From assembly GCA_000002435.2 (NCBI GenBank), contig CM018793.1: 64,000 nt of DNA. The stretch is one strand, 5' to 3'. The DNA comes from Giardia intestinalis. Taxonomy: Eukaryota. Under the pieces are notes generated by a model that searched no databases, was not told the origin of the DNA, and was given only the letters and a program-made list of their open reading frames with translations. This document shows positions 29,501 to 44,521 of the stretch, piece after piece. Each line of letters opens with the position of its first letter. Position 1 is the first letter of the stretch. A program made the position numbers and the translations under genes.

Positions 29501-32500
29501 CTGAAAAGTTAGCACGGATGTTTGTGGATTATAAGTTCTGTGGCGAGGTTCTGCAGCTTTGGGGTACTCAGAGGGACCACCTGAGTGGCAGCCAGTGACC
29601 TGCAGAGGGAGTGCATCATTAGATGCCTGGAAAGAGAGAGGTGAGGACTGCTCTGTCAAATCCTTACATCGTCGTCGCCTAATGAAGTTACTGGCACCGA
29701 GAGGAAGTGGCGGAGAAGACGGCGGGCTTTCACTCTCAAGGAAGCTAGGCTTTTGATGAGAGCTAGGATTTCCGTGCACGTGCCCATACACAAGCATATC
29801 GTACTGCTGCTTTGCTATGTTCCGCTCGTATTGACACCAGTTCCATACGTATACGAAGTCCTTTTGCTCTTCGTCCTTCTGCTTCCTGAGACCCTCTCTA
29901 CGGGCAATAGTAAACTGTGGCTCTAGATCCTTCACCAAGCGTAAGGTTTTATGTGCCATGACACTCATGTTCAGGCCCATCATAAAGAGCTCAGAAGAGT
30001 ATCTTGTTGCACAAAATATGGTACTATCTGTATAGAGATACGACGAAGTTATGTTGCAGATTCCAAAGTTGAAGAACGGACTGCGATGAGATTGAGTCAA
30101 GGAGAGCCCCTCGCCATATCTAAGTGCTGGCCGGAGATCAAAGACGTTGATAGCGGAAATGGTAGCAACATTGTGTACCTCTATATGCTTATTCCCCAAC
30201 AAAATGTGGCAAAACACCTTGGATGGATCATCTAGGAGAATACCGATCTTTGTTTGCGAATACCCTCGCACAACGCACGGAAACCCATAATCTATGAGGC
30301 AATTGAACCATGAAATCTGTTTTCGCATTACATAAACCTTTTCCCAATCTATTGGCGGCATTTGTTTTCTGTTAATATAAGTGGACTGACCAGGTATTCC
30401 TTTGAATTCTCCGTTGCATTGGTTTGACGGCTCATCAAACGGAACAATATGCTCCATAATCTTGCCACAGTCAAAGCAAACCCAATTATTTTCACGACAA
30501 TCCATGTAGCAATTGTAACAGTAATAGTGGCCGCAGAGAGTCCTAACTGGAAAGCGTAGGAGACCGCGGCAGCCAGAGCAGCAAAAGTCTCTGTAGGAGT
30601 ACCACATTGTAAAATCCGTTATAATCCTGAGGAATTTGCGGAGATGAGACGGATAACAGTAGGTTAGGTTGGATGAGAGAAGAGTTGGTCTGTTCTCAGT
30701 ATACGGAAATGAGTAGGCCTGGTCATATAAATTTGTACTGAATTCAGCTGGCGCTGCCTGAGAACCCTTCTCCCCCGTGGAAGAGAGTCCAAGGCTAGAA
30801 TTTCCTCGTCGTGCGGCCGCCTCTATCAGTTTATTTTGAGTTGCAAGTGCCTCTGGCCAGCGTTGGGCTTTTGCTCTTCGGGACGGCATGGCAATTTTGG
30901 ATGATATATCACAAGTAGTGGCTACCTTGCCGGACTGCCCAAGTTCCTCGACCATTTGAGCATGCTGCATGTGAGAGTCAACCTGAAGAGAGAAGGTGCC
31001 AATATTTTCAGAATGTGATGCACGAACATTATATATAGGTGAGCCTTTAAGGTCAGTAGACACCTCATCACAGCAACTAAGCTTCTGCCTAAAAGCCTCG
31101 CTGAAGAAAGGGGCAGGATCTTCGTTAGGTTCAGGAAACCGGAACGAGGAAGCAAGTTGTGCGGTATATGACTTTTCAGCCACGTTAGTGGAATAGGTAA
31201 CCATTTGCGACCCTGTTGTCTTGGGAATAGTAGAGGAACGGGGCTGTGAAGTATGGTTAGGCAACTGTTGCATGCACGCTGCACTATTGGATAAGCCAGT
31301 CTGATTGCTTGAGGTAAATCCCAATAAAGGATCGTTGTCAAAAGAAATAAGATCGTGCTTAACCAAATATACTTCAATTGGCAGACTAGTAACGGGATTC
31401 ATGACAAGTGATGCCACATCAAATGAGAAGTGAGCAGTGCTAACATCAGGCACCTCTTGCTGGGTAGTCAAATTAACAATATGAGTTAATGCTTCAGATG
31501 ACGGTTTTCGTTGCTTGACCTCCTTAAGCTTTAGCTTATAGCGATACAGGACATCTACATTATTATATATGTGTGTCTTTACAGTCAAGGAAAGCGGAAC
31601 AAACTTAGGCCAATGCGGGTGATAGGGGACCTCAATATTCCACTTCTTCTGACGGTGGCAGAAAAGCGCAAACTCCCTGGATGCGGTGTCTGAGACGGTG
31701 CTGGGATCGGTCTTTTCGGCTAAATAATCAAGTGCCTCTTTGACAATACCAGTTAACGAGGAGTGGTTCTGAGTTGAAGACCGACTTTTTTCTATAAACA
31801 ACTCTCTCTCCTGTACAGAGAAATCCCGGATAGGATAGATGCTAGCTAGGGTATGAGTAATATTATCAGGAAGCTTGACTGTTTCGATAGCAGGTGAGCC
31901 GTAGATAACCCTTGTACCTAGAACAAAGGTATTGGGGCGGAATGGTTCTAGCTCACAGAGTCTTCCAATCCAGAGTATTCCGTAGCAGTTGACGCGGACA
32001 ACTTTACAAGGATGCAGAGCATTTATCTTATAGCGCTCGTTGATGCTCATACCCTCCACAGTCTCGCGGTCTAAAATACGGACTAAATCGTCACTGATAA
32101 CTCCATCGGTGATGTCCTGAACCACGCCACAATATGACTGGATCATTTTAAATTGGCAAAGCTCGCGCGGGGCTAATATTCGCACAATATCCCCAGGAAC
32201 CGGCACATCTGGCGCAATCCCCATAAGGGCGTGCAACTGTGTATCCAGTTGTTCGTCGATGTATAGAATAAACGGATTGTACTGAATGTAGCGTGGACCT
32301 GGAAACATCGTCTGATAGTCATAAATAATGGAGCGTTCATTGCAGATAGGACACGTTCTTTCCCAGAGGGCAAATAGATAGTGAACACAATCAGCGCAAA
32401 AGACGTGCATACAATGAGAAAAGCGTACTGGCTTACGCATTGGCTCCAAGCATATTCGACAAATATACTCTGATGGAAAGCTGACGTACTTAAAATGGGA

Positions 32501-32809
32501 GCCATCGGTATATACCTTGAGGGCATAGGGATCGCAGGAGTCACAGACAGACGTCGAGAATTCGGAGTCGCAGGGAGCAGATTGACTGGTAATAGGGATG
32601 GAAACATCGGGGTGAGTGGTCTCTGTAATAAAGGTCTGTGGGCTCAGTTTCTTAGCTGACCGCTTCCATAGGTTGGAAGCAGTAGTCAAGCTCGAGTTAG
32701 ATTGAAAAAGTTGAGACAATCGTTGAGCTGCTGAGAGATCGTCTATGGTATAGCTACACATGACCTCTAAGTTCTGCACTTCTCCCTCTGCATACTCATC
32801 AGAAAGCAT
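26588..32809 (-). CDS. Very large hypothetical protein, 2,073 aa, containing three RING-type zinc fingers.
   Basis: RING-like motifs: CRICLEPMRKPVRFSHCMHVFCADCV...CPICN; CSGCRGLLRFPVRTLCGHYYCYNCY...CFDCG; CDTCRRFP...CSSCHCVLRRPVRLVCDHIVCRTCA...CLACG. Confidence 0.7.
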   Translation of the reverse strand: MLSDEYAEGEVQNLEVMCSYTIDDLSAAQRLSQLFQSNSSLTTASNLWKRSAKKLSPQTFITETTHPDVSIPITSQSAPCDSEFSTSVCDSCDPYALKVYTDGSHFKYVSFPSEYICRICLEPMRKPVRFSHCMHVFCADCVHYLFALWERTCPICNERSIIYDYQTMFPGPRYIQYNPFILYIDEQLDTQLHALMGIAPDVPVPGDIVRILAPRELCQFKMIQSYCGVVQDITDGVISDDLVRILDRETVEGMSINERYKINALHPCKVVRVNCYGILWIGRLCELEPFRPNTFVLGTRVIYGSPAIETVKLPDNITHTLASIYPIRDFSVQERELFIEKSRSSTQNHSSLTGIVKEALDYLAEKTDPSTVSDTASREFALFCHRQKKWNIEVPYHPHWPKFVPLSLTVKTHIYNNVDVLYRYKLKLKEVKQRKPSSEALTHIVNLTTQQEVPDVSTAHFSFDVASLVMNPVTSLPIEVYLVKHDLISFDNDPLLGFTSSNQTGLSNSAACMQQLPNHTSQPRSSTIPKTTGSQMVTYSTNVAEKSYTAQLASSFRFPEPNEDPAPFFSEAFRQKLSCCDEVSTDLKGSPIYNVRASHSENIGTFSLQVDSHMQHAQMVEELGQSGKVATTCDISSKIAMPSRRAKAQRWPEALATQNKLIEAAARRGNSSLGLSSTGEKGSQAAPAEFSTNLYDQAYSFPYTENRPTLLSSNLTYCYPSHLRKFLRIITDFTMWYSYRDFCCSGCRGLLRFPVRTLCGHYYCYNCYMDCRENNWVCFDCGKIMEHIVPFDEPSNQCNGEFKGIPGQSTYINRKQMPPIDWEKVYVMRKQISWFNCLIDYGFPCVVRGYSQTKIGILLDDPSKVFCHILLGNKHIEVHNVATISAINVFDLRPALRYGEGLSLTQSHRSPFFNFGICNITSSYLYTDSTIFCATRYSSELFMMGLNMSVMAHKTLRLVKDLEPQFTIARREGLRKQKDEEQKDFVYVWNWCQYERNIAKQQYDMLVYGHVHGNPSSHQKPSFLESESPPSSPPLPLGASNFIRRRRCKDLTEQSSPLSFQASNDALPLQVTGCHSGGPSEYPKAAEPRHRTYNPQTSVLTFQYHHRLRPKQAPTATAYCSTHPLINPNYRNKLVMQDEKILKYRKDFIKWYFDQPEMHPNNSPISFAFGESAIRPTGNSTKMYSLQVERKMQKYDSTPHIDTQAERLIKEEERNQYVVRSLCDTCRRFPTLSFLCSSCHCVLRRPVRLVCDHIVCRTCACIHLASEIPCLACGVAVTDISKVRYEVDLENQIIHAVNHMFYSPKYDVGVIVKSTDSSNTGMVVGLAYLQGMHYAYVAFFGAIKLCRCANLVILEPDWKTLDLEQVLGDHPQRLIAKNMRQSSFHHPLESFFKSQPTILQALNETSKAPNTIEQHTSSHITKAQEDNGTLGSSVIEAHGISKPTTETLKDMLLSEPADSKTLALLGTIYSVSTTTSGMTSSGRSKSASTPLSRNTHQPISGMSSSTTDGTMFLSLPVPSDMHHQDEDPIDAPRKRFQNNDPSYNEMPLSVLGSPAASSAEVLLFDRTMTLSQSGRSNHQLAPLSHPSTVFDCQQHDRDTPHAEKLVMSPRGSLQNDYVSLLHLDDQPTVLAKRNPTEPNNVSLKQPILPDCCAAQPVETSSLCRTKSAPAHLSREDLENNVLFTNTRAIDLDTQSQWSPIAYLSTAEIAEQGISIDSDKIKQAITSEPPVLRRQESAPSLLRKTDTDIDTDIHMPFIEGTRVTKLRPYFYDGEELLKLPTHRQKYRVFSASIAGSKSAKSCVSANDALFSKEPHKKHSKYPQLGDVFVVAIGPYKGLLGLTQSYAKAYDTFILSYYCLLETGTAHEFRATDLRKITLMPSISAQSIRKQLADAKNADEDRKKLCWYRLIMQNKIATAEKFEQLKHLFNLKDPDGIVAILRAKEAGTKGDTDTLATISGIEQVRVSPRTNLNTLLDKKIVFLSGPRRHLNRIRSKSSSPPKTRDGEANAQSSGCFGLRSLTDEMVSPLCRSFSVHTPSRASLMQEFTSTKSSSFLLQHLNLNTVSSLPKVIVVN

Positions 32810-33030
32810 ATGACCTTCTCAGCGATTCACAGGAAACACTTAGAGCTGTTTGTACAATTATTCAAAAAATACGTTTTCTACAGCTGTTGCTTGGTTGTCC
32901 TTCAGCCTTGATTCTACTCTCGTTCAGCTGTATGTCACCCTACGTGCTGATTACCACGTCTGTATCGCAGTAAAGTATTTAAGAGTAAATTCGAGCACTT
33001 TACTTTTCAATATTTCACCATTTACCTGCT

Positions 33031-33388
33031 CTGCTGTCCGAGTAAATCTCCCTGCAACGCCACCGCCCTGGGCAGGGCTCCCGCTCGCCGTCCGGGGTCC
33101 AGCCCCAGCGTCCGAAGATCAGGCGCCCTCGATCCGGGCGGGAGAACTCCTATGCCCCAGCTCCCCCGGAAGCCGCTGCTCCTCACGTTACCTCTAGGGT
33201 TCCTCCCTTCCTCTGGCCCATCGGAGTCAACTATCGTCTGGCACTGGTGGGCACCTGCTATTCAGGGTCTTGCGTCTGTTGCGGCGATCTGGCCTCCACG
33301 TGGCCCGGGGCCCTGGTGCTCTGTGACGAGGATCACACGCCACGACCTCGAGTGTCTACCCCGTTCCTCGGGGTGCCTCTTCGTCTCC
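33031..33388. repeat. Left arm (IR-A) of an inverted-repeat pair. The 358-bp core is ~99% identical to the reverse complement of 41535-41893. Weaker (~75-80%) homology continues inward to about 33700.
   Basis: Direct nucleotide comparison against the reverse complement of 41535-41893 finds one C/T mismatch and one 1-nt indel across the core. Diverged but clearly homologous sequence continues beyond it. Confidence 0.85.
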
Positions 33389-33399
33389 TCGTGGATTGC

Positions 33400-35350
33400 A
33401 CCATCAGTCCCGAGCATGATCGGAGGATGCGATCCCCGTACTCCTCTATCTTGGGGTTGTGGTACGCATTCGTGGATGCCGGCGGAGTACTCATATGCGT
33501 TGTGTTGGGGAGGAGGCCCGGCAGGTGTTCCAGACCACTACTCCTCGGTGTGGGCAGGATCAATCCACTTCTGTCAGCCAGACACTCCAAGGATCCCGAC
33601 TTGCCTGTCGAGGGATTCACATGGGTCACGTGTGGGTCCGTCTCGACAAGCGTGGCGAGTGATTGGTGCCATCACTGGCTTCAGGCCCTCCGTTGCCTTG
33701 AGGGGTCCTTCGAGACCGGCCAGGAAGGAGGCCTCCTGCTCCTCTGTGCTCCTACACCCAATGGTGACCGTCGAACCATAGCACTTCCTAGGCCTGTCGC
33801 CTCTGTGACTATCCTCGCCGCGTCACTGTTGTCGGCATGGGCACTGAGTGGGGTATCTCCTCAGCTCCCGATGAGCAGGTTCTGTCCCCCGCAGCACAGA
33901 AGCATGCTCAGGGTCCCGAGGGACCGAGTCCAGGAGTGCAGCGTGGCGCAGCCGGAGGAAGGCCTCGACGCAGCTCCTTGGAACTGTCTTGTGGAGCAAA
34001 TCATGATCGTCCGCTGATCGTGGTTGTCCTGTCCCATTCTTGGAGAAGGGCCAGGCGGAACCGTACAGAGCACGCATCCCATCCTATGGATCGCGCCGAG
34101 GATCTCGCTGAAGGCCTGCACCTGGATGGACTCGCCAGCGCAGGTCCAGGCCGTCCTGATCCGGCCCTCTGGATAGCAAGGTGCTGGTCGTCGATGGCGC
34201 TGTTAGGGGGCAGCTCCCCTTCGAGGCGAGGCTGAGGATGCAGGCCGGGCAGCGGACCGGTGAATGCCACTCCTCCGGTTCCCCGCTGCTCCACTCAGTA
34301 GCACCCTGCATCCGGTGTCTGTTCTGCATGCGTCTGGACGGCCTCGCTGTGGAGAGTCTTCATGCAGGACAGGCACGTGCTCTTCCGCTCCTACTAGTTC
34401 AACGTTCACCCGGTGCCGCTCAGCGTAGGATGCTCCGTTTCAGTGGGCTCCTGAGGCCCGGGTCGGACCTGGAGCACCGGAAGCGCGCTCATGAGTGCTT
34501 CACACGCTCGCACGAGAGGCGCGGCCTTTCCGCCGTCTCATCAGGCGCCCACTGCACCCGCGGCCCTCGTTCTCCTGGCGTCGGAGCGCATCCCCGGCGA
34601 GGGGCGGCGCTTCGCAGTGCCCTGGACGAGCTGGGCGCTCTGGTGCTGTCGTCCGCTCAACCCCGCGGCCTCGGTCGTGCTACTGGGCGGCAGGAGTCGC
34701 ACCTTAGCCCCTTGGCTGGTCTGGAGGGCGTTCCGGTTGATGCCAGAGCTGGCGTGCACGGCCTGGCTCTTCTCCCCCGGACTCGGCCGACGTTCTGACC
34801 CGAATCCCGGACTCTGGGCTTGGGGCGGCGAACGGGCGGGGTCCGCCTGCCGCGGGGAGGACTTGCACGGGGTACGGATTGCTCGGCCGGCAGGTGGCAG
34901 ACCAGCTTCGATGAGGCGGAAGGTGAGCTGCGTGGCCCTGGAGTAGCGGGTGCCCACCGGGTGTGGGGAGCAGCTGGCCCAGGTTGACTAGAGGAACGCA
35001 CCGCGGGGCAACAACGGCCCCCTAGGGAGGAAGCACAAGGCTCTTCTCCAGAGGTGGGCGACCCCCGAGCTCGAGTTCTTGTCTCAGATGCCGGGTGGTG
35101 AACGAACAAGAGACCTGCCTTCATTTGTTGTCAACTACTATTACACCCTCATCTTGTTCAACGCATCAAAGCAAAAATAAGGTTGTCTGAGTAGCTCCCA
35201 CGAGCCACCAAGCGTCCTCAGAAGCAGGCAAGCCGTGGAGACACGTTCGCTCTATATGGTTAGTTCTGGTGGTGCGCTACTTAGACTGCTCTATAGGGGA
35301 GCGGCGGCACTTTTCCGTCTCTCGGTGGTCGGTGCTGTTGAGCACTGGTG
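33400..35350. other. GC-rich (~65% GC) block of about 2 kb with no credible ORF. It is densely tiled by short overlapping Arg/Pro/Ala-rich ORFs on both strands, which is typical of GC-rich non-coding or decayed sequence.
   Basis: The composition contrasts with the flanking ~47% GC. None of the table ORFs here shows a domain signature, and all have low-complexity R/P/A/G-rich translations. Confidence 0.5.
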
Positions 35351-35375
35351 CTTCACTCTACCGGCCTTAGAGCGT

Positions 35376-36839
35376 TTACTCTGAGAGGAGGGCGACTATC
35401 TCATGGCGTCTCCATAACTTAGCCATGTCAAGGGCAGTCCCCCCATTATAACCCTTCAAGTCCTTCTCTCTCATGAGGAGCCTGACACAGTCTGTGTGAT
35501 CGTTCTTCACAGCCCACATGAGGGCCGTCCACCCGTTGCTATCTTTCAGTCCCTTCTCTTTCTCCGCGAGCAGCTCCACGATCCCTGCGTGTCCGTATAC
35601 CGCCGCTCTCATCAGGGCAGTTCCCTCGTATATCTTCCAGTCACCTACAAGTGCGCATCCCTTCATCTTCATGCCCCCCTGGAGTGGTATGAGGGCCTTC
35701 ACAGCCTCCACGTCGTTTCTGTCGACAGCCCTCATGAGGTCGGTGGAGTCGTCCTCCTCTATTAGGTGCTTCTCTGGTTCTTCTGACTCCTCCATTTCGT
35801 CTGTCTTATCCGTCTCTGTTTTAATCTCCTGCATCTCTTCAAATAGCTTGGCAGCAACAGCATAGTGTCTCCTAATGGAGTCCACTTTTGCGGCGCTATT
35901 AGTGGGATCCTTTTCGAGAGTTACTGTTTTGTTGTTGGCCCTATTCAAGGCTTCTACAAAGGCTGCACGCACCTCCTTTAGCCTTGTGTCTTGGGCCTCT
36001 TGTTCATCAGCAGAGATGCCAGGCCTCCGAAGTAGACGGACGAGCCCCCTGGCAGTCGGCCTCTCGGCGGGATCGAGGACGAGCATCCTCTCAAGGACGT
36101 TCCTTGCGAGGTCGTCTGCGACACCGCTCAGGTTCGACCTCCATCCATCGACGAAGACATCCTCTGGTTCTCTGCCCCCCAGGAAGTCCGGCTTCCTCAG
36201 GGTGGCGAGCTCGTATGCGACGGCCCCAAGGCTCCAGACGTCGGATGCGGCGGTCGTGTCACCGCTGAGGAGTGTCTCGGGGGCCATGTACGCGGGGTCG
36301 CCAGCCTTCGCAGCTCCGCTCGATATGCCCTCGCAGAACCCGAAGTCTGCAAGAACAACACGCCGCCCGTCCCCAGCGAACATGACGTTGTCGGGCTCGA
36401 GGACAACGCTAGAGGGCAGGCCGTTGTGGGCACCTCTGCTGAGCCCGTGGAGGTGGGCAAGGGCGCCAGCCAGCTGCCCCAGAAGGGAGAGCATCAGCTC
36501 GCTGGGAATAGGTTCGTGAATGTCTTTGTAGTCGGTGATGAACTGCCGGAGGTCTCCACAGCAGCGGTCTGTGACAACAAGGATCGTGTTGCCATCTGTA
36601 AGCACCTGGTGGTATTTGAGAACGTCTGGGTGAAGGGTGCCTAGAAGAGCGGTCAGCCTACGCCGAATGGCATCTACACTGTGCTGATCCAGACCATCAA
36701 GCCGGATCTCTCTCACGGCGAGGTAGGGGCATCCCCTGAGAGAGTAGACGGCACCGTGGGCATCCTTGCTGAGCATGTTACCTAGGCGTCTATGCAACTT
36801 TTTGGGGCTGAACACGGGAACGCCACCAGCGCCCATCGG
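35376..36839 (-). CDS. NEK-family protein kinase-like protein, a predicted pseudokinase, with C-terminal ankyrin repeats. The longest ORF extends to 36998; the likely start is the Met at 36839 (MGAGGVPVFSPKK...).
   Basis: A kinase-fold protein with DFG (LADFGFC), APE (YMAPETL) and DVWSLG motifs. It lacks the GxGxxG loop, has VREI in place of VAIK, and has a degenerate catalytic loop (LEPDNVMF in place of HRDxKPxN). The C-terminus carries ~4 ankyrin repeats (TALMRAAVYGHAGIVELL and similar). This is the Giardia NEK+ankyrin architecture. Confidence 0.75.
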   Translation of the reverse strand, partial: PMGAGGVPVFSPKKLHRRLGNMLSKDAHGAVYSLRGCPYLAVREIRLDGLDQHSVDAIRRRLTALLGTLHPDVLKYHQVLTDGNTILVVTDRCCGDLRQFITDYKDIHEPIPSELMLSLLGQLAGALAHLHGLSRGAHNGLPSSVVLEPDNVMFAGDGRRVVLADFGFCEGISSGAAKAGDPAYMAPETLLSGDTTAASDVWSLGAVAYELATLRKPDFLGGREPEDVFVDGWRSNLSGVADDLARNVLERMLVLDPAERPTARGLVRLLRRPGISADEQEAQDTRLKEVRAAFVEALNRANNKTVTLEKDPTNSAAKVDSIRRHYAVAAKLFEEMQEIKTETDKTDEMEESEEPEKHLIEEDDSTDLMRAVDRNDVEAVKALIPLQGGMKMKGCALVGDWKIYEGTALMRAAVYGHAGIVELLAEKEKGLKDSNGWTALMWAVKNDHTDCVRLLMREKDLKGYNGGTALDMAKLWRRHEIVALLSE

Positions 36840-37216
36840 CCCTGCAAAGCCGCTAGCTGCACTGTTACTAGCGTCTCTCAGGACACCCTCTGCGGTGGCT
36901 GGGAAGTGGGCGCGGCTTGCCCGTGGGGCCTCTGAGCGCACCTGCAGGCGGGGCCAGCGATACAGTGACAGCAATGTACAGGAGTGCACCCCGAACAATC
37001 ACTCCACAAGAGAGGTGCGATCTGAGTCCGGCCCTCACTGGTCCTGTTCCTACTGAAGTCAGGGAAAACTACACTATCAGCTGGCCTCCGGTGGGTGTGC
37101 TCCTATCTTGTCCTTCTCCAGTCCAACTGATCGAGAAGAGCAAGAGCGGCTGTCTCTCACTGCTCGCGGCAACACACCAGCCTGACGGAAGAGCAGTGGC
37201 ACGTGTGCTCCGGCTA

Positions 37217-40200
37217 ATGTTGATAGGATTTCTCCTAGTTTGTGTGGTAACACGGGCAGAATGCGCCCAAAACCTGAAGGACGCGGGCTGCGAGACCTGC
37301 ACAGAGGCGGGCCCCAGCCAGACGTGCCTCACCTGTAGCGGTGGCCAGAAGGTGCTCCTCGACGGGAAGAGCTGCGGGGCCAATTGCCCGCCGAACTCTG
37401 TGGCCAGCCCGAACGTCTGCGAGTGCGACCAGGGATTCAGCCTGAACAGCGGGAAGGACGGCTGCGTGGCGGCCTCTAACACGGAATGCGCCCAAAACCT
37501 GAAGGACGCGGGCTGCGAGACCTGCACAGAGGCGGGCCCCAGCCAGACGTGCCTCACCTGTAGCGGTGGCCAGAAGGTGCTCCTCGACGGGAAGAGCTGC
37601 GGGGCCAATTGCCCGCCGAACTCTGCGGCCAGCCCGAACGTCTGCGAGTGCGACCAGGGATTCAGCCTGAACAGCGGGAAGGACGGCTGCGTGGCGGCCT
37701 CTAACACGGAATGCGCCCAAAACCTGAAGGACGCGGGCTGCGAGACCTGCACAGAGGCGGGCCCCAGCCAGACGTGCCTCACCTGTAGCGGTGGCCAGAA
37801 GGTGCTCCTCGACGGGAAGAGCTGCGGGGCCAATTGCCCGCCGAACTCTGCGGCCAGCCCGAACGTCTGCGAGTGCGACCAGGGATTCAGCCTGAACAGC
37901 GGGAAGGACGGCTGCGTGGCGGCCTCTAACACGGAATGCGCCCAAAACCTGAAGGACGCGGGCTGCGAGACCTGCACAGAGGCGGGCCCCAGCCAGACGT
38001 GCCTCACCTGTAGCGGTGGCCAGAAGGTGCTCCTCGACGGGAAGAGCTGCGGGGCCAATTGCCCGCCGAACTCTGCGGCCAGCCCGAACGTCTGCGAGTG
38101 CGACCAGGGATTCAGCCTGAACAGCGGGAAGGACGGCTGCGTGGCGGCCTCTAACACGGAATGCGCCCAAAACCTGAAGGACGCGGGCTGCGAGACCTGC
38201 ACAGAGGCGGGCCCCAGCCAGACGTGCCTCACCTGTAGCGGTGGCCAGAAGGTGCTCCTCGACGGGAAGAGCTGCGGGGCCAATTGCCCGCCGAACTCTG
38301 CGGCCAGCCCGAACGTCTGCGAGTGCGACCAGGGATTCAGCCTGAACAGCGGGAAGGACGGCTGCGTGGCGGCCTCTAACACGGAATGCGCCCAAAACCT
38401 GAAGGACGCGGGCTGCGAGACCTGCACAGAGGCGGGCCCCAGCCAGACGTGCCTCACCTGTAGCGGTGGCCAGAAGGTGCTCCTCGACGGGAAGAGCTGC
38501 GGGGCCAATTGCCCGCCGAACTCTGCGGCCAGCCCGAACGTCTGCGAGTGCGACCAGGGATTCAGCCTGAACAGCGGGAAGGACGGCTGCGTGGCGGCCT
38601 CTAACACGGAATGCGCCCAAAACCTGAAGGACGCGGGCTGCGAGACCTGCACAGAGGCGGGCCCCAGCCAGACGTGCCTCACCTGTAGCGGTGGCCAGAA
38701 GGTGCTCCTCGACGGGAAGAGCTGCGGGGCCAATTGCCCGCCGAACTCTGCGGCCAGCCCGAACGTCTGCGAGTGCGACCAGGGATTCAGCCTGAACAGC
38801 GGGAAGGACGGCTGCGTGGCGGCCTCTAACACGGAATGCGCCCAAAACCTGAAGGACGCGGGCTGCGAGACCTGCACAGAGGCGGGCCCCAGCCAGACGT
38901 GCCTCACCTGTAGCGGTGGCCAGAAGGTGCTCCTCGACGGGAAGAGCTGCGGGGCCAATTGCCCGCCGAACTCTGCGGCCAGCCCGAACGTCTGCGAGTG
39001 CGACCAGGGATTCAGCCTGAACAGCGGGAAGGACGGCTGCGTGGCGGCCTCTAACACGGAATGCGCCCAAAACCTGAAGGACGCGGGCTGCGAGACCTGC
39101 ACAGAGGCGGGCCCCAGCCAGACGTGCCTCACCTGTAGCGGTGGCCAGAAGGTGCTCCTCGACGGGAAGAGCTGCGGGGCCAATTGCCCGCCGAACTCTG
39201 CGGCCAGCCCGAACGTCTGCGAGTGCGACCAGGGATTCAGCCTGAACAGCGGGAAGGACGGCTGCGTGGCGGCCTCTAACACGGAATGCGCCCAAAACCT
39301 GAAGGACGCGGGCTGCGAGACCTGCACAGAGGCGGGCCCCAGCCAGACGTGCCTCACCTGTAGCGGTGGCCAGAAGGTGCTCCTCGACGGGAAGAGCTGC
39401 GGGGCCAATTGCCCGCCGAACTCTGCGGCCAGCCCGAACGTCTGCGAGTGCGACCAGGGATTCAGCCTGAACAGCGGGAAGGACGGCTGCGTGGCGGCCT
39501 CTAACACGGAATGCGCCCAAAACCTGAAGGACGCGGGCTGCGAGACCTGCACAGAGGCGGGCCCCAGCCAGACGTGCCTCACCTGTAGCGGTGGCCAGAA
39601 GGTGCTCCTCGACGGGAAGAGCTGCGGGGCCAATTGCCCGCCGAACTCTGCGGCCAGCCCGAACGTCTGCGAGTGCGACCAGGGATTCAGCCTGAACAGC
39701 GGGAAGGACGGCTGCGTGGCGGCCTCTAACACGGAATGCGCCCAAAACCTGAAGGACGCGGGCTGCGAGACCTGCACAGAGGCGGGCCCCAGCCAGACGT
39801 GCCTCACCTGTAGCGGTGGCCAGAAGGTGCTCCTCGACGGGAAGAGCTGCGGGGCCAATTGCCCGCCGAACTCTGCGGCCAGCCCGAACGTCTGCGAGTG
39901 CGACCAGGGATACACGCTCAACGCCGGAAAGACCGCGTGCGAGAAGGCCTCTAACACACAGTGTAATACTCCCAACTGCAAGATCTGTGATAACCCCAAA
40001 ACAGACAACGAAATCTGCACTGAATGTAATGATAACAATTACCTCACCCCGACAAAGCAGTGCACGCAGAGCTGCGGAGCAATAGGAAGCTACTACAACG
40101 GAGACAAAGTGTGCGAGCCTTGTGATTCTAGCTGTGCTGCGTGCACCACAACGGGACCAGCGAAGTGCACGCTGTGTCCTCCCGGGAAGAGGCTCCAGTA

Positions 40201-40906
40201 CACCAATGATGATCCTAGTCAAGGTGGATCCTGCGTAGATGAGTGCAAGCCCCAGAGTGGAGCTAGCGGATGCGAGACCTGCGGAGCCACCATCGGAGGG
40301 ACAAAGTATTGCTCGAAGTGCAGCACATCCACGGAGGTCCCCGTCAACGGAGTCTGTACAGCAGACAATGCCCGCGCGCCCGTATGCTCGAAAAAGGACA
40401 ATCAGGGAGGGTGCACTACGTGTGCCAGTGGGTACTTCCTCCAAGACGGCGGTTGCTATAAGACTGACAGACAGCCCGGTGAGCAGATATGCACACTAGC
40501 TGATAGCAATGGTGGATGTCAGACGTGCGCCAATAGTCTTCAGCCTAATAATGGAGCATGCCCTTCGTGTCACTCGACATGCAAGACATGTCGTGATGCT
40601 AATTCTGCAAATACTTGTACAACGTGTGCAACTGGGTACTACATGGTTGGATTAAATGCTGGGCCATGCACTTCGTGTGACAGCAACAGTGGAAGTGTCA
40701 AGGGAGTTGCTGGCTGCATGAGCTGCGCTCCTCCATCTAGCAATACTGGCTCCGTCCTCTGCTATCTCATAAAGGATACCGGTAGCACGAACAAGAGCGG
40801 CCTTTCTACCGGCGCCATCGCGGGGATCTCCGTGGCTGTCATCGTCGTTGTGGGGGGCCTTGTGGGCTTCCTCTGCTGGTGGTTCCTGTGTAGGGGGAAG
40901 GCGTGA
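37217..40906 (+). CDS. Variant-specific surface protein (VSP), 1,229 aa from the signal-peptide Met. It has a cysteine-rich ectodomain with many CXXC motifs, 12 tandem 75-aa repeats, a GGCY motif, a C-terminal transmembrane helix and the invariant CRGKA tail. The longest ORF begins upstream at 36917.
   Basis: The C-terminus reads ...GAIAGISVAVIVVVGGLVGFLCWWFLCRGKA*. GGCY is present (FLQDGGCYKTD), as are abundant CXXC motifs. The N-terminus MLIGFLLVCVVTRA is a signal peptide. AGTAAAC lies 8 nt after the stop. Confidence 0.9.
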   Translation: MLIGFLLVCVVTRAECAQNLKDAGCETCTEAGPSQTCLTCSGGQKVLLDGKSCGANCPPNSVASPNVCECDQGFSLNSGKDGCVAASNTECAQNLKDAGCETCTEAGPSQTCLTCSGGQKVLLDGKSCGANCPPNSAASPNVCECDQGFSLNSGKDGCVAASNTECAQNLKDAGCETCTEAGPSQTCLTCSGGQKVLLDGKSCGANCPPNSAASPNVCECDQGFSLNSGKDGCVAASNTECAQNLKDAGCETCTEAGPSQTCLTCSGGQKVLLDGKSCGANCPPNSAASPNVCECDQGFSLNSGKDGCVAASNTECAQNLKDAGCETCTEAGPSQTCLTCSGGQKVLLDGKSCGANCPPNSAASPNVCECDQGFSLNSGKDGCVAASNTECAQNLKDAGCETCTEAGPSQTCLTCSGGQKVLLDGKSCGANCPPNSAASPNVCECDQGFSLNSGKDGCVAASNTECAQNLKDAGCETCTEAGPSQTCLTCSGGQKVLLDGKSCGANCPPNSAASPNVCECDQGFSLNSGKDGCVAASNTECAQNLKDAGCETCTEAGPSQTCLTCSGGQKVLLDGKSCGANCPPNSAASPNVCECDQGFSLNSGKDGCVAASNTECAQNLKDAGCETCTEAGPSQTCLTCSGGQKVLLDGKSCGANCPPNSAASPNVCECDQGFSLNSGKDGCVAASNTECAQNLKDAGCETCTEAGPSQTCLTCSGGQKVLLDGKSCGANCPPNSAASPNVCECDQGFSLNSGKDGCVAASNTECAQNLKDAGCETCTEAGPSQTCLTCSGGQKVLLDGKSCGANCPPNSAASPNVCECDQGFSLNSGKDGCVAASNTECAQNLKDAGCETCTEAGPSQTCLTCSGGQKVLLDGKSCGANCPPNSAASPNVCECDQGYTLNAGKTACEKASNTQCNTPNCKICDNPKTDNEICTECNDNNYLTPTKQCTQSCGAIGSYYNGDKVCEPCDSSCAACTTTGPAKCTLCPPGKRLQYTNDDPSQGGSCVDECKPQSGASGCETCGATIGGTKYCSKCSTSTEVPVNGVCTADNARAPVCSKKDNQGGCTTCASGYFLQDGGCYKTDRQPGEQICTLADSNGGCQTCANSLQPNNGACPSCHSTCKTCRDANSANTCTTCATGYYMVGLNAGPCTSCDSNSGSVKGVAGCMSCAPPSSNTGSVLCYLIKDTGSTNKSGLSTGAIAGISVAVIVVVGGLVGFLCWWFLCRGKA
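37259..39958 (+). repeat. Intragenic tandem array of 12 copies of a 225-bp unit, each encoding a 75-aa, 10-Cys module (ECAQNLKDAGCETCTEAGPSQTCLTCSGGQKVLLDGKSCGANCPPNSAASPNVCECDQGFSLNSGKDGCVAASNT).
   Basis: Unit starts recur at 37259, 37484, 37709, ... 39734, an exact 225-nt period. Copies are identical apart from one substitution in copy 1 (GTG vs GCG, V/A) and divergence in the last ~60 nt of copy 12. Confidence 0.95.
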
Positions 40907-40913
40907 CTTAGGT

Positions 40914-40920
40914 AGTAAAC
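40914..40920 (+). promoter_or_regulatory. Giardia polyadenylation signal AGTAAAC (AGTRAAY) for the VSP gene.
   Basis: Located 8 nt downstream of the TGA stop at 40904-40906. Confidence 0.6.
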
Positions 40921-41534
40921 GCGTCATTGTGTGTGGCTTATTACGCTGTGCTACTGGGGCTATCTGAGGATCGCCCAGAGGTCGTGCGGGTAATCATCGC
41001 TCCTTCCTGGCCAGTTCAGAGACGAGGGTTGGCTGTGGATGATATAATAGGGATCTCCCTTCACTTGTATACCAGGAGTCTTTTGCGTCCCTCAGTTGTT
41101 CCGCAGAGGTGTGCTCAGTTCGAGTGTGCACGTCGGTCTGTCTAGGATTCAACTTACTTGCCCATCTGCGTCGTCCACCATTGGTGCCACTTCTTGGTCT
41201 ACCGCTCTGATGGCGGAGGGTCCCAGCAGTTAATGATCCTGGACCGACGCCTCGACAGACCGAAGCATCACCCCCAAGTGTGTTGTGCAGATGGACCAGC
41301 CCACACGTCACTGAGCCAGACACACTGCACAGAATGAGCGTCGACATGATCTCGTACTGGCTGACGGACCATCCACAAGAGCGCACTGCGATCATGAGCA
41401 GAGGGATGGGCCTCTCCCCTGATACCACCGCATGGGAGTACTCCATCGGCATCCACGAACGCGTACTATGACTCCAGGATAGAGGCGCACGGGGAGCGCA
41501 CCCCCGACAGCAGGGTCGATGGTCCACGTCATGG

Positions 41535-41893
41535 GGAGACGAAGAGGCACCCCGAGGAACGGGGTAGACACTCGAGGTCGTGGCGTGTGATCCTCGTCAC
41601 AGAGCACCAGGGCCCGGGCCACGTGGAGACCAGATCGCCGCAACAGACGCAAGACCCTGAATAGCAGGTGCCCACCAGTGCCAGACGATAGTTGACTCCG
41701 ATGGGCCAGAGGAAGGGAGGAACCCTAGAGGTAACGTGAGGAGCAGCGGCTTCCGGGGGAGCTGGGGCATAGGAGTTCTCCCGCCCGGATCGAGGGCGCC
41801 TGATCTTCGGACGCTGGGGCTGGACCCCGGACGGCGAGCGGGAGCCCTGCCCAGGGCGGTGGCGTTGCAGGGAGATTTACTCGGACAGCAGCT
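41535..41893. repeat. Right arm (IR-B) of the inverted-repeat pair. The 359-bp core is the reverse complement of 33031-33388. Weaker homology continues inward to about 41180.
   Basis: See IR-A. The reverse complement of this segment aligns base-for-base with 33031-33388. Confidence 0.85.
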
Positions 41894-41929
41894 GCAAACT
41901 AACCTTGGTAAACAGAGTAAATTATTTGC

Positions 41930-44521
41930 TTATATAAATATTCCCTCATACATTCCTGCATCCCGGCCTGTGTGTCCTGCCCCCTTAACAGATGCCCTGT
42001 ATGGATCTCTGAGAGCGTCATTTCGATCCCTCATAAGCTCCCATTCTTTTTGTGTTCTGTGCAGATCCGCTTTCCGCTTTGCAGTCTTCGCAGCTTCATC
42101 TGCGGTGATTCTCTTTTGCTGCTCCAGGTCAGCTTGTTGCTTCCTCTTACATTCAGATCGTTCCTCCGCTTGTCTATGTTTAGTTAACTGTATGTTTTCC
42201 AATCGTTTTTGCTTGACCTCGCTTGCTATTTGCGCTTTCTCTGGCCCTGGATATGCTGCCTTTGTGTAGAACATATCCGTTGTTTTTGTGTAGGTATTGG
42301 TTAAGATATTCTCAGTAAATATCTTGACAGTACTTTTCTCTTTGGCCCGCGCGTTTAGTTTTTGCCGTAAAGCATTTGCGGCAGCTCGTGCAACCTCCCC
42401 TTGCTCTATCTGCTCGCGACTTTGCTCCTCACGTGTCTTAATACGCTTACCTAACTCTTTCTCATAGCTATCAATTATTTCCTTGGTAGACTCCTGAACG
42501 GCATCTATATACTTTTGATAGATGGAGAAATCAACACGTACATCTGCGGTTAGCTTCATTTGCTCTCTATCGGCGCGAATAGCTTCTCTTACCCGTGCTA
42601 CCTGCTCACATTTTCGTTGCAGCTCAGCCTGTTCATTCTCTTTCGCTTCCAAAATAGCTTTACGACGATCCTCTAGAATCTGAAGATTAACCTCTTTCAT
42701 GAGAAGGAGCCGCTGCCGTAGCTCTGTAAGAGACATTTCATCTAATAAGCCGTGACCTGCCGTAGTAGAGGAGTCATACTTTTCAAGTAATTTCTTTTCG
42801 CGCTCTGCTCCAACTATTTCCAGCATAGCCTTAATTTGCTTCACTAGCTCTATCCTTTCGATGCTCTCAGCAAGCTTTAAGTCTGCCATATACTCCACGT
42901 TTTGAAGATGCTCTTGTCTTCGCTCGTCCGCGAGCCTCTGCTTCTCTCTCGCTAAATCTTTTTTAGCTTCATCCACCTTTAATTGTAACATGTCGTGCTG
43001 TTCCTTAGCATGCCGCTGAGCCTCTTGGAGTCGTTTATCATCTCTTTCAAAGTACTCAAGGAGCTGCTGAAAATGCTCTTTATTTTCCTCACTTACCTTA
43101 GCTGTTTTCAACTTTAGCGCCACTTCCCGCGCATGTTTTGCATCTTCGAAAGCTAGCTTCGCATCACGCTTATGAAGCTCTATTTCGGCAAGGCGCTTCT
43201 GTTTGTCGAGCTCAAGCATGGCTGCTCGCCACATATCAAACTCCGAACTATCCCGCAAGCCAGCCATATACATATTAAGCTCTTGGGCCTCCACATCCAA
43301 CGCCTTTTCTATAATTGCGTTAGCTCGCAAAATAGTCGCTTTTGTCTCTCTTGGCGGTGGAACCTGGACATATCTCTTGCGTGCCATGGCTTGCTTTCGT
43401 TCAATAGATGCAGCAGCCTCCCGGGCGGCCTCCTCCTGCTTCTTATCGTCCAGTTTCTTTTTGGCCTCGGCGTGCCGACGCTTATCCTCGCTGTACCATT
43501 CAGCTGTGCGCTTATCTGGTTTAGTCAGTTGAGGGAGGAATTGTTTGCGCTCCTCCTCTGCTTTCTTTAGCACCTCGTTCATTGGCTTATTAAGCATAGC
43601 AAGTGGGGCTTTCTTTGCCGTATAGCAGTATTCAGCCTGCACCTCTTCTGGAGTAATATCTGTAATTTTCTTTGATAAAGAAACACTGGTCACAGGAGCA
43701 CTAAACTTTGTGCCAAGTGCTGGTGCTATCGGAGGTGGTGTTCGCCCTTTTTGCCAGGCGCTTTTAGCTTCTGACTTTTGGGATAGCATGGCTATTAGAT
43801 CTGTCGCTTCCTGGTAACAATTATGAACAATCGCATGTGTCAAAGGTCCACGAACATATGTCTCATCAAAGTGTGACTCTAAGATACGTCTTAGATGAAT
43901 AGATAGCCGCGCGTCTTGAACTACGGGCTGTATTGCCTGTTGCATTAATGAATCCTCGGTAGCTTTGTACCTATCGTTTTCCGAGCTACTTTCGTCACCA
44001 GAGCCCTTTTCCGCGATATCTACCGATCCCTTAGTTATTTTGGAAGGTGAGGCGTCGCCCCAAACCAGTCGCAAAAATGGCAGAATAACAGAGGCTTGCT
44101 GAGACACCAGGATGGCTCGTAGCTTGGAAAACGGTTGGCGCAAAAGCTCAAAAATGGTATAGTAAAACAATACATAATAGAGGTTCTTAGCAGATGGAAG
44201 GAGCTGGGGATTTTGCGCGTAAAGTAGGTCAGTACAGCTTTTAAGAACAGGCCTGTTGCTAGCAACCCCGCAACACACATCACTAATGAATTGTCGCTGC
44301 TGTATAGTCATTTGGTCAGTCATATTCTTCAGTGGAGCAGAGGTAGAGACGCCCACAGCAGAGCAGTCGATCCTCACACTGCCTGTTTCATCATCAGTTT
44401 GAGGAATGTACACGGTGTAGTTTTGGAGTACTCCTTCAACGTACTGATAGATATCCTCTCTTGCAGGGCTGTAGTTCGTTAGGCAGCCGCATATTATATC
44501 GACAATAGAGCGAATTTTCAT
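41930..44521 (-). CDS. Hypothetical K/E/R-rich coiled-coil protein, 863 aa.
   Basis: Long ORF whose central ~500 aa are a charged coiled coil (KKLDDKKQEEAAREAAASIERKQAMARKRY... and similar). Its 3' end lies 36 bp from IR-B. Confidence 0.6.
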   Translation of the reverse strand: MKIRSIVDIICGCLTNYSPAREDIYQYVEGVLQNYTVYIPQTDDETGSVRIDCSAVGVSTSAPLKNMTDQMTIQQRQFISDVCCGVASNRPVLKSCTDLLYAQNPQLLPSAKNLYYVLFYYTIFELLRQPFSKLRAILVSQQASVILPFLRLVWGDASPSKITKGSVDIAEKGSGDESSSENDRYKATEDSLMQQAIQPVVQDARLSIHLRRILESHFDETYVRGPLTHAIVHNCYQEATDLIAMLSQKSEAKSAWQKGRTPPPIAPALGTKFSAPVTSVSLSKKITDITPEEVQAEYCYTAKKAPLAMLNKPMNEVLKKAEEERKQFLPQLTKPDKRTAEWYSEDKRRHAEAKKKLDDKKQEEAAREAAASIERKQAMARKRYVQVPPPRETKATILRANAIIEKALDVEAQELNMYMAGLRDSSEFDMWRAAMLELDKQKRLAEIELHKRDAKLAFEDAKHAREVALKLKTAKVSEENKEHFQQLLEYFERDDKRLQEAQRHAKEQHDMLQLKVDEAKKDLAREKQRLADERRQEHLQNVEYMADLKLAESIERIELVKQIKAMLEIVGAEREKKLLEKYDSSTTAGHGLLDEMSLTELRQRLLLMKEVNLQILEDRRKAILEAKENEQAELQRKCEQVARVREAIRADREQMKLTADVRVDFSIYQKYIDAVQESTKEIIDSYEKELGKRIKTREEQSREQIEQGEVARAAANALRQKLNARAKEKSTVKIFTENILTNTYTKTTDMFYTKAAYPGPEKAQIASEVKQKRLENIQLTKHRQAEERSECKRKQQADLEQQKRITADEAAKTAKRKADLHRTQKEWELMRDRNDALRDPYRASVKGAGHTGRDAGMYEGIFI

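What the first reader, a model, noticed from the sequence alone, without database searches (positions are those of the whole stretch)
35376..37217. Head-to-head NEK pseudokinase and VSP genes sharing a ~380-bp upstream region
The pseudokinase (likely start 36839 on the minus strand) and the VSP (signal-peptide Met at 37217 on the plus strand) are transcribed divergently from a short shared region. The longest ORFs of both genes run into one another (36917-36998). The kinase lacks the catalytic Lys, the Gly-loop and the HRD motif but keeps DFG/APE, so it is probably a scaffold rather than an enzyme. Co-inheritance of an inactive NEK with a VSP inside one IR-bounded unit suggests a functional pairing, for example trafficking or co-regulation during antigenic switching.
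Basis: partly seen in the sequence, partly recalled or inferred. Interest (0 to 1): 0.5.

Follow-up and report, generated by a model that had tools for sequence, protein, structure and literature searches.

The report
Giardia dead-NEK/VSP pair at rearrangement junction
Two already-annotated Giardia genes, a catalytically dead NEK kinase and a surface-antigen (VSP) gene, do sit head to head, but the 380 bases between them are a rearrangement scar joining a beheaded kinase gene to the VSP's own upstream module, so the pairing looks like a by-product of gene-family shuffling rather than a functional unit.

Summary
They sit in a GC-rich island bounded by about 490-bp inverted repeats. Both gene models match GenBank exactly.

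The kinase lacks the beta3 Lys, most of the Gly loop and HRD, but keeps DFG and APE. Manning et al. 2011 already list it as GK145, Nek-GL4, "Dead Nek - missing K72, D166".

The spacer is composite. Positions 36837-36904 are relic NEK N-terminal coding sequence, and this copy has lost the start codon and AT-rich promoter that its paralogs keep. Positions about 36907-37216 are a VSP 5' leader module found upstream of other VSPs.

Related NEK/VSP pairs elsewhere are arranged tail to head. The closest VSP relative has a different upstream neighbour. At the syntenic site, assemblage E has an ankyrin gene plus retrotransposon remnants and no VSP; the assemblage B contigs show only an oppositely oriented VSP-like fragment before they end. 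About 10 VSP-NEK adjacencies are expected by chance in this genome, and published genome papers already describe VSP/NEK islands at synteny breaks.

Verdict: ordinary and largely known.

The parts
35376..36836 (-). NEK pseudokinase gene (486 aa): a degenerate kinase domain, a coiled/acidic linker and about 4 ankyrin repeats. It is GenBank KAE8304910.1 and Manning 2011 entry GK145, Nek-GL4, 'Dead Nek - missing K72, D166'.
   Evidence: Pfam Pkinase E=1.2e-20 and Ank_2 E=2.6e-21. Best PDB hits are NEK2 and NEK7 (E about 1e-16 to 1e-17).
35374..35380 (-). AGTAAAC polyadenylation-type signal overlapping the NEK stop codon.
   Evidence: Sequence read. The Giardia AGTPuAAPy signal is established knowledge.
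36837..36904 (-). Relic of the ancestral NEK N-terminal coding sequence, now upstream of the annotated ATG. Paralogs read through it from a start ('MAVDCGLYP...') about 100 nt further up, which is preceded by ATTTAAAAAGT. Neither is present in this copy.
   Evidence: Homology to L001, L002 and L003 ends at 36904, 36902 and 36900. Blastx matches residues 15-47 of P0002. Manning's note reads 'Extended ORF 54 AA upstream of ATG'.
36894..36907 (.). Rearrangement junction between the NEK-derived and VSP-derived sequence. A roughly 12-nt stretch, GG(T/C)GGC(T/C)(G/A)GGAA, resembles both partners and may be microhomology.
36907..37216 (+). VSP 5' leader module, conserved at 85-89% nt upstream of other VSP or VSP-like genes. 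It is open in frame with the VSP from ATG 36974 and is annotated as coding in some paralogs.
   Evidence: L004 9717-10356, L005 9972-10319, proteins P0112-P0119. The primer of PMC10566177 starts at the ATG homologous to 36974.
37215..37221 (+). VSP initiator element TAatgTT, which contains the start codon.
   Evidence: Sequence. The consensus PyAatgTT comes from Adam et al. 2010 (PMC2996952).
37217..40906 (+). VSP gene (1229 aa): signal peptide, 161 Cys with 38 CXXC motifs, a transmembrane anchor and a CRGKA tail. It is GenBank KAE8304911.1 and is probably vsp21/GL50803_137717 (TR225, chromosome 5) of Adam 2010.
   Evidence: (Pfam VSP E=5e-95).
37259..39957 (+). 12.0 tandem copies of a 225-bp (75-aa) repeat inside the VSP, 99% identical to one another.
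40914..40920 (+). AGTAAAC polyadenylation-type signal 8 nt after the VSP stop codon.
40944..41151 (-). Inverted, diverged (76%) fragment of the far-upstream part of a VSP 5' flank, lying just downstream of the VSP.
   Evidence: matches L005 10045-9837.
33031..33519 (+). Left arm of the inverted repeat. It begins 222 bp upstream of the ATG of the 2073-aa RING-finger gene.
   Evidence: Related elements (67-82% nt identity) lie 3' of NEK paralogs or NEK fragments in L002, L003 and L005, and next to the 863-aa core gene in L006.
41408..41891 (-). Right arm of the inverted repeat. It ends 39 bp downstream of the stop codon of the 863-aa core gene. A diverged counterpart (about 66% nt identity) lies directly after that gene's stop in assemblage E.
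33650..35079 (+). Non-coding GC-rich filler with no NEK, ankyrin or VSP similarity. It is homologous to sequences that lie upstream of NEK paralogs in P15 and DH, so the NEK segment is inverted relative to it.
33031..41891 (.). The whole 8.9-kb GC-rich variable island (GC 0.53-0.66 against about 0.45 in the flanks), lying between two conserved core genes.

Best explanation
This is one of the lineage-variable, GC-rich VSP/NEK islands of the Giardia intestinalis WB genome.

A member of the fast-turnover Nek-GL4 pseudokinase subfamily and a tandem-repeat VSP were brought head to head by recombination. The breakpoint, at about 36895-36907, cut off the first roughly 14 codons, the start codon and the AT-rich core promoter of the NEK. 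It fused the rest directly to the roughly 310-bp 5' leader module that travels with this VSP subfamily.

The two genes are therefore neighbours because VSP, NEK and ankyrin genes duplicate, invert and recombine together in such islands, not because they form a regulatory or functional pair.

The VSP most likely uses its own initiator (TAatgTT) and leader (inferred). The NEK, translated from the next in-frame ATG, is at best a kinase-dead ankyrin scaffold. It would be transcribed from cryptic or divergent initiation in a spacer that has no canonical AT-rich element (inferred).

Shown: the gene identities, the motif losses, the composite spacer, the non-conserved arrangement and the variable syntenic site.
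Inferred: the order of rearrangement events and how each gene is transcribed.
For: 1. Identity. Both products are exact matches to annotated WB proteins on the 4.02-Mb chromosome.

2. The pseudokinase is already catalogued as GK145, Nek-GL4, 'Dead Nek - missing K72, D166'. GL4 is described as strain-specific, rampantly duplicated and pseudogenised. The motif losses were verified against NEK2 and NEK7.

3. Composite spacer.
- NEK homology with three paralogous loci stops at 36900-36904.
- P15 and DH paralogs carry ATTTAAAAAGT plus an ATG further upstream; this copy does not.
- VSP-leader homology with L004 and L005 starts at 36907 and 36894.
- The spacer has GC 0.605 and no 8-mer with at least 7 A/T.
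- Giardia core promoters are AT-rich elements within about 50-90 bp of the ATG (PMC1885649; PMC7000408).

4. The arrangement is not conserved.
- L001 carries the same VSP clade (87% nt) and NEK clade (88% nt) as VSP->NEK->, in different flanks.
- L005 is VSP -> NEK fragments -> arm.
- L004, the closest VSP, has a methyltransferase upstream.
- L002 and L003 NEK paralogs have no VSP.

5. Syntenic site.
- P15 is collinear at 85% up to the island, then has an ankyrin-only gene and RT remnants.
- In assemblage B, homology stops at the stop codon of the core gene. A VSP-like fragment follows in the other orientation.

6. Literature. VSP, NEK, HCMP and protein 21.1 genes cluster in high-GC insertions at synteny breaks. 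NEKs lie between head-to-head VSP pairs in WB chromosome 2 and in G. muris.

7. Chance expectation is about 10 VSP-NEK adjacencies.
Against: - The same NEK clade is found beside the same VSP clade at three loci (window, L001, L005). That is more linkage than independent random placement would give and leaves some room for selection on proximity.
- The NEK ORF is intact. Paralog dN/dS is 0.33-0.43, and Manning's table gives SAGE tags for it (R 6.32, maximum 21.8). It is therefore probably expressed despite lacking a canonical promoter, and divergent transcription from the VSP leader is one way that could happen.
- I could not examine the WB genome as a whole or any expression data for this pair.
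Confidence: 0.75

Rival explanations
1. Functional pairing. The dead NEK and the VSP are a co-regulated divergent pair driven from a shared bidirectional region, with the NEK acting as a scaffold in VSP trafficking or switching.
For: - The NEK clade and VSP clade recur together in L001 and L005.
- Giardia promoters are inherently bidirectional (PMC1885649).
- This NEK has lost its own promoter, so it may depend on the VSP leader.
- SAGE tags exist for it.
Against: - The head-to-head arrangement and the spacer are unique to this locus among those sampled. Other pairs are tail to head, with 0.4-3 kb between the genes.
- The spacer is a fusion scar.
- The closest VSP relative and two other leader-bearing VSP loci do not have a NEK upstream.
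- At the syntenic site, assemblage E has no VSP and no kinase-bearing NEK. The assemblage B contigs end within about 2 kb of the core gene and show only a VSP-like fragment in the opposite orientation.
- VSP choice is regarded as epigenetic or post-transcriptional (abstract of PMC2996952; otherwise established knowledge).
Confidence: 0.08
2. The NEK copy is a decaying, functionless gene remnant. It is effectively a pseudogene that still has an open frame, and the adjacency has no meaning at all.
For: - It has lost the ancestral start codon and AT-rich promoter.
- It carries Arg at the beta3 Lys position, whereas the DH paralog P0002 and WB GK148 keep Lys in the same dead-HRD clade.
- It lacks about 198 aa (six ankyrin repeats) relative to P0002 and P0006.
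- Manning found 29 GL4 pseudogenes and 'little purifying selection' on some copies.
Against: - The 486-aa ORF is uninterrupted and has an intact polyadenylation signal.
- The short ankyrin form is shared with P0007 and P0017, so it is an older variant and not local decay.
- dN/dS is below 0.45.
- SAGE tags are reported.
- It is annotated as a gene in the RNA-seq-guided 2020 annotation.
Confidence: 0.12
3. The inverted repeats make the 7.9-kb NEK-VSP segment an invertible cassette. Its orientation, or exchange of the cassette, would matter for VSP expression or diversification.
For: - The arms are 99% identical over their outer 282 nt.
- Relative to the core genes, the block from the filler to the NEK 3' end is inverted between WB and P15.
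- The P15 island is also bounded by inverted copies of the same element.
- Franzen 2009 reports two synteny variants arising from inversions between similar regions.
Against: - The VSP's leader and Inr lie inside the segment, so inversion would not separate the gene from its promoter.
- The WB/P15 difference is evolutionary, not shown to be somatic.
- VSP switching is not known to need DNA rearrangement (established knowledge).
- Only one orientation is seen in the sequence available here.
Confidence: 0.05

Closest known systems
Nek-GL4 subfamily of Giardia NEK kinases (Manning et al. 2011, Genome Biol 12:R66), entry GK145
   Same: It is this gene. The protein sequence is identical apart from one residue (N/D at position 235).
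   Different: Nothing differs in the protein. New here: the upstream ORF extension is a relic of a longer N-terminus, and its start and promoter were removed by the junction with the VSP leader.
GC-rich VSP/NEK/HCMP/protein 21.1 insertion islands at synteny breaks (Franzen 2009, Jerlstrom-Hultqvist 2010, Xu 2020)
   Same: GC is elevated. The surroundings are gene-poor and non-coding. The island sits between conserved core genes. Content differs between assemblages A, E and B at the same site.
   Different: This island is bounded by a roughly 490-bp inverted repeat. A diverged counterpart of the repeat also bounds the P15 island. I did not find that detail described in the papers I read.
Inverted VSP pairs with intervening NEK/ARP or RT remnants (Adam 2010; Xu 2020 Table 2; G. 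muris Table 3)
   Same: The architecture is inverted-repeat based, with a NEK lying on the 5' side of a VSP. RT remnants occupy the equivalent position in P15.
   Different: Only one VSP is present. The repeated arms are short non-coding elements, not duplicated VSP ORFs.
Tandem-repeat VSPs (vspA6/CRP170, vspC5; probably vsp21 'TR225', GL50803_137717)
   Same: The layout matches: a short leader peptide, then many near-identical tandem repeats, then a unique Cys-rich region and the conserved CRGKA end. The Inr is TAATGTT and the gene is on chromosome 5.
   Different: There are 12 repeat copies here against 3 in the 2010 assembly, consistent with the repeat collapse that paper warns about. The assignment to vsp21 is probable, not proven.

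Membership tests
NEK protein kinase family (Giardia Nek-GL4) | Protein-kinase fold whose closest characterised relatives are NEKs. | tested here: met
   Pfam Pkinase E=1.2e-20. The top PDB hits are NEK2 and NEK7, ahead of ULK, DAPK and CDK.
NEK protein kinase family (Giardia Nek-GL4) | Placement in the GL4 clade by kinase-domain similarity. | tested here: met
   The sequence is found in Manning 2011 Table S1 and Alignment S1 as GK145_WB_GL4. Its closest homologues are strain-specific Giardia NEKs.
NEK protein kinase family (Giardia Nek-GL4) | C-terminal ankyrin repeats, typical of Giardia Neks. | tested here: met
   Ank_2 E=2.6e-21 at residues 409-485.
Pseudokinase (catalytically dead) | Loss of at least one of K72, D166 and D184. 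| tested here: met
   K72 is Arg and the HRD Asp is absent (PSS-VV-LEPDN). D184 (DFG) is kept. Actual lack of activity cannot be tested with these tools.
Variant-specific surface protein (VSP) | Pfam VSP domain, CXXC-rich ectodomain, C-terminal transmembrane segment and a CRGKA tail. | tested here: met
   PF03302 E=5.2e-95. The protein is 13.1% Cys with 38 CXXC motifs and ends ...FLCRGKA.
Variant-specific surface protein (VSP) | Initiator PyAatgTT at the start codon, and an N-terminal signal peptide. | tested here: met
   TAatgTT lies at 37215-37221, and the protein starts MLIGFLLVCVVTRAEC.
Co-regulated divergent gene pair with a shared bidirectional promoter | The intergenic region and head-to-head arrangement are conserved at homologous loci. 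| tested here: not met
   L001 and L005 are tail to head. L004 has a different upstream gene. The syntenic site in P15 lacks the pair, and the short assemblage B contigs show no trace of it.
Co-regulated divergent gene pair with a shared bidirectional promoter | Core promoter elements (AT-rich Inr/TATA-like) lie between the two genes and could serve both. | tested here: not met
   No 8-mer with at least 7 A/T occurs in the 380-bp spacer. The only recognised element is the VSP Inr at the VSP ATG.
Co-regulated divergent gene pair with a shared bidirectional promoter | Correlated expression of the two genes. | not testable with these tools
   No expression data for this pair were accessible. There is only a SAGE value for the NEK.
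VSP/NEK variable GC-rich island at a synteny break | Raised GC, conserved core genes on the flanks, and different content in other assemblages. | tested here: met
Inverted VSP pair (Adam 2010) | Two identical or near-identical VSP ORFs in inverted orientation, 2-4 kb apart. | tested here: not met
   The window holds one VSP only. The inverted repeat arms are 490-bp non-coding elements.

The most novel reading that the evidence does not exclude
The site downstream of the 863-aa core gene is an old recombination hot spot bounded by inverted repeats. The same roughly 0.5-1.2-kb element bounds the island in assemblages A and E, and also follows GL4-type NEKs elsewhere. That element would promote inversion and exchange of VSP/NEK/ankyrin cassettes. 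It would explain why particular NEK and VSP clades travel together, and would provide a defined cis element for the turnover of Giardia's variable gene families.
Probability: 0.15. Interest if true: 0.5.

Novelty: already known. Interest (0 to 1): 0.17.

Why it matters
This matters little beyond housekeeping. Both genes are annotated, the kinase's dead status is published, and co-location of VSPs with NEKs in GC-rich variable islands is a textbook feature of Giardia genomes.

Three details are useful:
- The 'shared upstream region' is a fusion scar. It removed the NEK's native start and promoter, which cautions against reading regulatory meaning into divergent pairs in these islands.
- This VSP subfamily carries a conserved roughly 310-bp leader that is better conserved than the VSP body.
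- The island is IR-bounded and inverted relative to assemblage E, which bears on how variable gene families are reshuffled.

Tried and rejected
- Exact-protein look-ups for the WB paralogs P0001, P0010, P0017, P0020 and P0006 found nothing. The 2020 WB assembly is not in that index, so WB-wide neighbour cataloguing was impossible. I had to sample DH, P15, assemblage B and ENA contigs instead.
- Blastx of the 'empty' island parts (32700-35400 and 40880-42000) against all NEK, ankyrin and VSP proteins gathered so far gave no hits. They are not obvious pseudo-VSP or pseudo-NEK remnants.
- Rfam found no RNA family in 32500-42500.
- A literature search for GL50803_137717 gave nothing. Sources disagree on the 'VSPAS7' name: Adam 2010 gives 137717, PMC10566177 uses 101496. 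I therefore do not name the VSP firmly.
- I considered a simple foldback (inverted duplication) of a VSP->NEK->arm module as the origin of the island and rejected it. The arms have the opposite orientation to what that model predicts.
- I considered reading the ORF overlap at 36917-36998 as real overlapping coding sequence and rejected it. Both extensions depend on TTG starts and are explained by relic coding sequence and an open leader.

Full report
**What the window is.** The kinase ORF is a 100% match to 'Kinase, NEK [Giardia duodenalis]', KAE8304910.1. The neighbouring ORF matches 'VSP', KAE8304911.1. Both lie on a 4,018,654-bp chromosome of G. intestinalis WB (ATCC 50803). The two GenBank accessions are consecutive, so no annotated protein appears to lie between them.

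**Checking the observation.**
- The mechanical ORF list gives a minus-strand ORF at 35376..36998 and a plus-strand ORF at 36917..40906, overlapping at 36917-36998 as stated. Both outer limits are TTG 'starts' produced by the bacterial ORF rule.
- The annotated NEK begins MGAGGV... at 36836.
- The VSP begins at 37217 with MLIGFLLVCVVTRAEC, inside the VSP initiator consensus PyAatgTT (here TAatgTT, 37215-37221; Adam 2010).
- The spacer is 380 bp, shorter than the genome's mean intergenic length of 477 bp.
- Pfam gives Pkinase plus ankyrin repeats for one gene and the VSP family (E=5e-95) for the other.
- The VSP carries 12.0 copies of a 225-bp repeat and ends in CRGKA. It has 38 CXXC motifs.

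**Kinase motifs.** HMMER alignments to human NEK7 and NEK2, the best PDB matches, show four things:
- The Gly loop is reduced to GNMLSK.
- The beta3 Lys is replaced by Arg (AVRE).
- HRDLKPxN is replaced by PSS-VV-LEPDN.
- DFG and APE are retained.

This is exactly what Manning et al. [quoted passage not shown] GL4 is the subfamily they describe as strain-specific, rampantly duplicated and rich in pseudogenes. Seventy-one per cent of WB Neks are predicted dead and are proposed to act as scaffolds. The pseudokinase part of the finding is therefore correct and already published.

**The island.** GC rises from about 0.45 to 0.53-0.66 between 32 and 42 kb. An inverted repeat bounds the region: 33031-33519 against 41891-41408, 92.7% identical overall and 99% over the outer 282 nt. 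The left arm starts 222 bp upstream of a 2073-aa RING-finger gene. The right arm ends 39 bp after the stop codon of an 863-aa core gene. Apart from the NEK and the VSP, the island has no similarity to the NEK, ankyrin or VSP proteins collected and no Rfam match. The 64-kb window contains no other VSP or NEK, only conserved ankyrin-repeat genes.

**The spacer is a fusion of two modules.**
- Three paralogous NEK loci (L001 from an ENA assembly, L002 from P15, L003 from DH) align with the window NEK through the annotated ATG. They continue for another 64-68 nt and stop at 36904, 36902 and 36900.
- That stretch encodes residues about 15-47 of the longer paralogs.
- In P15 and DH the reading frame continues upstream to an ATG (MAVDCGLYP...). 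That ATG is preceded by ATTTAAAAAGT, a typical Giardia AT-rich initiator. The WB copy has unrelated GC-rich sequence there.
- From the other side, the upstream regions of two DH VSP loci align with the window from 36907 (L004, 85%) and 36894 (L005, 89%) through the VSP start.
- Eight database proteins include a translation of this leader.
- The two homologies meet within about 12 nt, and there the sequence resembles both partners.

So 36837-36904 is beheaded NEK coding sequence, and about 36907-37216 is a VSP-family leader. No sequence is left over that could be a dedicated shared element. The spacer has GC 0.605 and no 8-mer with 7 or more A/T. Giardia core promoters are AT-rich elements within some 50-90 bp of the ATG.

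The mutual ORF 'overlap' is explained in the same way. The NEK extension is relic coding sequence running on into the antisense of the leader. The VSP extension is the leader, which happens to be open in frame from ATG 36974. A published cloning primer for a related VSP starts at the homologous ATG, and its authors note the absence of a signal peptide.

**Is the pairing conserved?**
- L001 holds a VSP 87% identical (nt) and a NEK 88% identical to those of the window. They are arranged VSP->NEK->, 412 bp apart, next to an ankyrin gene and coatomer beta, so this is a different chromosomal site.
- L005 (DH) has a VSP with the same leader, then 2.3 kb of spacer, then ankyrin/kinase/ankyrin fragments in the same direction, then an arm-like element. 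All of this lies between TTL and CPSF_A genes.
- L004 (DH) carries the closest VSP relative, with the same leader and the same repeat. A small ORF and a methyltransferase lie upstream, and there is no NEK.
- The P15 and DH NEK paralogs in L002 and L003 have no VSP nearby.

The two gene clades have evidently been duplicated together more than once, but never with the head-to-head junction seen here.

**The syntenic site.**
- Assemblage E: using the 863-aa gene as an anchor, the P15 contig is collinear with the window at 85% from mTOR to just past the right arm. It then carries an ankyrin-only 460-aa gene, reverse-transcriptase remnants and no VSP.
- Relative to the core genes, the block from the non-coding filler to the NEK/ankyrin 3' end is inverted between WB and P15.
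- The P15 island is itself bounded by diverged inverted copies of the same element.
- Assemblage B: homology stops at the core gene's stop codon. A VSP-like fragment follows on the opposite relative strand before the contigs end.

The site is a variable-gene hot spot whose content is lineage-specific.

**Status of the NEK.**
- Its ORF is intact and it has an AGTAAAC signal at the stop codon.
- Pairwise dN/dS against paralogs is 0.33-0.43, similar to 0.28 for the VSP C-terminal region.
- Manning's table lists SAGE tags for it.
- It lacks six ankyrin repeats relative to the 680-aa relatives, but shares this short form with P0007 and P0017.
- No minus-strand ATG lies in the spacer, so any transcript starting there would still use ATG 36836 first.

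I consider it most likely a weakly expressed dead scaffold. A decaying remnant is the alternative.

**Comparison with what is known.**
- The genome papers for GS, P15, WB-2020 and G. muris all report that VSPs, NEKs, HCMPs and ankyrin proteins populate high-GC, gene-poor insertions at synteny breaks.
- They also report NEKs or RT remnants lying between head-to-head VSP pairs.
- With 133 VSPs, 184 NEKs and 4,963 genes, about 10 VSP-NEK adjacencies and 2-3 divergent ones are expected by chance alone.

**Verdict.** The functional-pairing interpretation is not supported. The locus is an ordinary, already annotated example of a known kind of island. The modest new points are the fusion-scar nature of the spacer, the conserved VSP leader module, and the IR-bounded island that is inverted relative to P15.

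Noticed in passing
window 33031-33519 / 41408-41891; L006 12819-14003 vs 20869-19655 and 15738-16935 vs 22144-20948: The island's inverted-repeat element also bounds the different island at the syntenic site in P15, where the arms are 66.6% identical and there is a nested 1.2-kb IR at 99.9%. The inter-arm block is inverted between WB and P15 relative to the core genes. The WB arms are 99% identical only in their outer 282 nt, which suggests gene conversion.
   Followed up: partly
L002 6354-6710 and 11809-12376; L003 6802-7227; L005 16216-17005: Sequences 69-82% identical to the IR arms lie directly 3' of GL4-type NEK paralogs, or of NEK fragments, in P15 and DH. The arm element therefore seems to be part of the NEK duplication unit. 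Small ORFs with no Pfam match are called inside it in DH.
   Followed up: partly
window 36894-37244 vs L005 9972-10319; window 37446-37691 vs L005 10338-10583: The VSP 5' leader plus signal peptide is 89% identical between the window and a DH VSP. The body of that VSP is only about 43% identical in protein and 71% in nt. The leader looks like a module that recombines onto different VSP bodies, or is separately conserved. It also heads small 'hypothetical proteins' such as GL50803_00100969 (P0115).
   Followed up: partly
window 40944-41151: Just downstream of the VSP lies an inverted, 76%-identical fragment of the far-upstream part of a VSP 5' flank (L005 10045-9837). It may be a remnant of an earlier inverted VSP arrangement.
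   Followed up: no
window 37259-39957: The VSP has 12 near-perfect 225-bp repeats. The probable equivalent in the 2010 catalogue (vsp21, GL50803_137717, TR225) is listed with 3 copies and 646 aa, consistent with repeat collapse in the old assembly. Two sources attach the name 'VSPAS7' to different gene IDs (137717 in Adam 2010, 101496 in PMC10566177).
   Followed up: partly
window 36974 and PMC10566177 primer: A published VSPAS7 expression construct starts at the ATG homologous to window 36974, 81 codons upstream of the Inr ATG. Its authors remark that the signal peptide is absent. This suggests that some functional work used a leader-extended, probably non-native, VSP N-terminus.
   Followed up: no
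L003 1225-1821: The DH contig carrying the full-length NEK paralog has a 198-aa ORF with a Schlafen AlbA_2 domain (E=2e-8) upstream of the NEK. That is an unusual domain for Giardia.
   Followed up: no
L007 13923-14567; L008 13923-14066: In assemblage B a VSP-like sequence (34-46% identical to the window VSP) lies 1.3 kb downstream of the 863-aa core gene, on the opposite relative strand to the WB VSP. Both contigs end there.
   Followed up: partly
window 36892-36906: About 12 nt at the NEK/VSP-leader junction resemble both parental sequences, GG(T/C)GGC(T/C)(G/A)GGAA. This may be microhomology used in the joining event.
   Followed up: no
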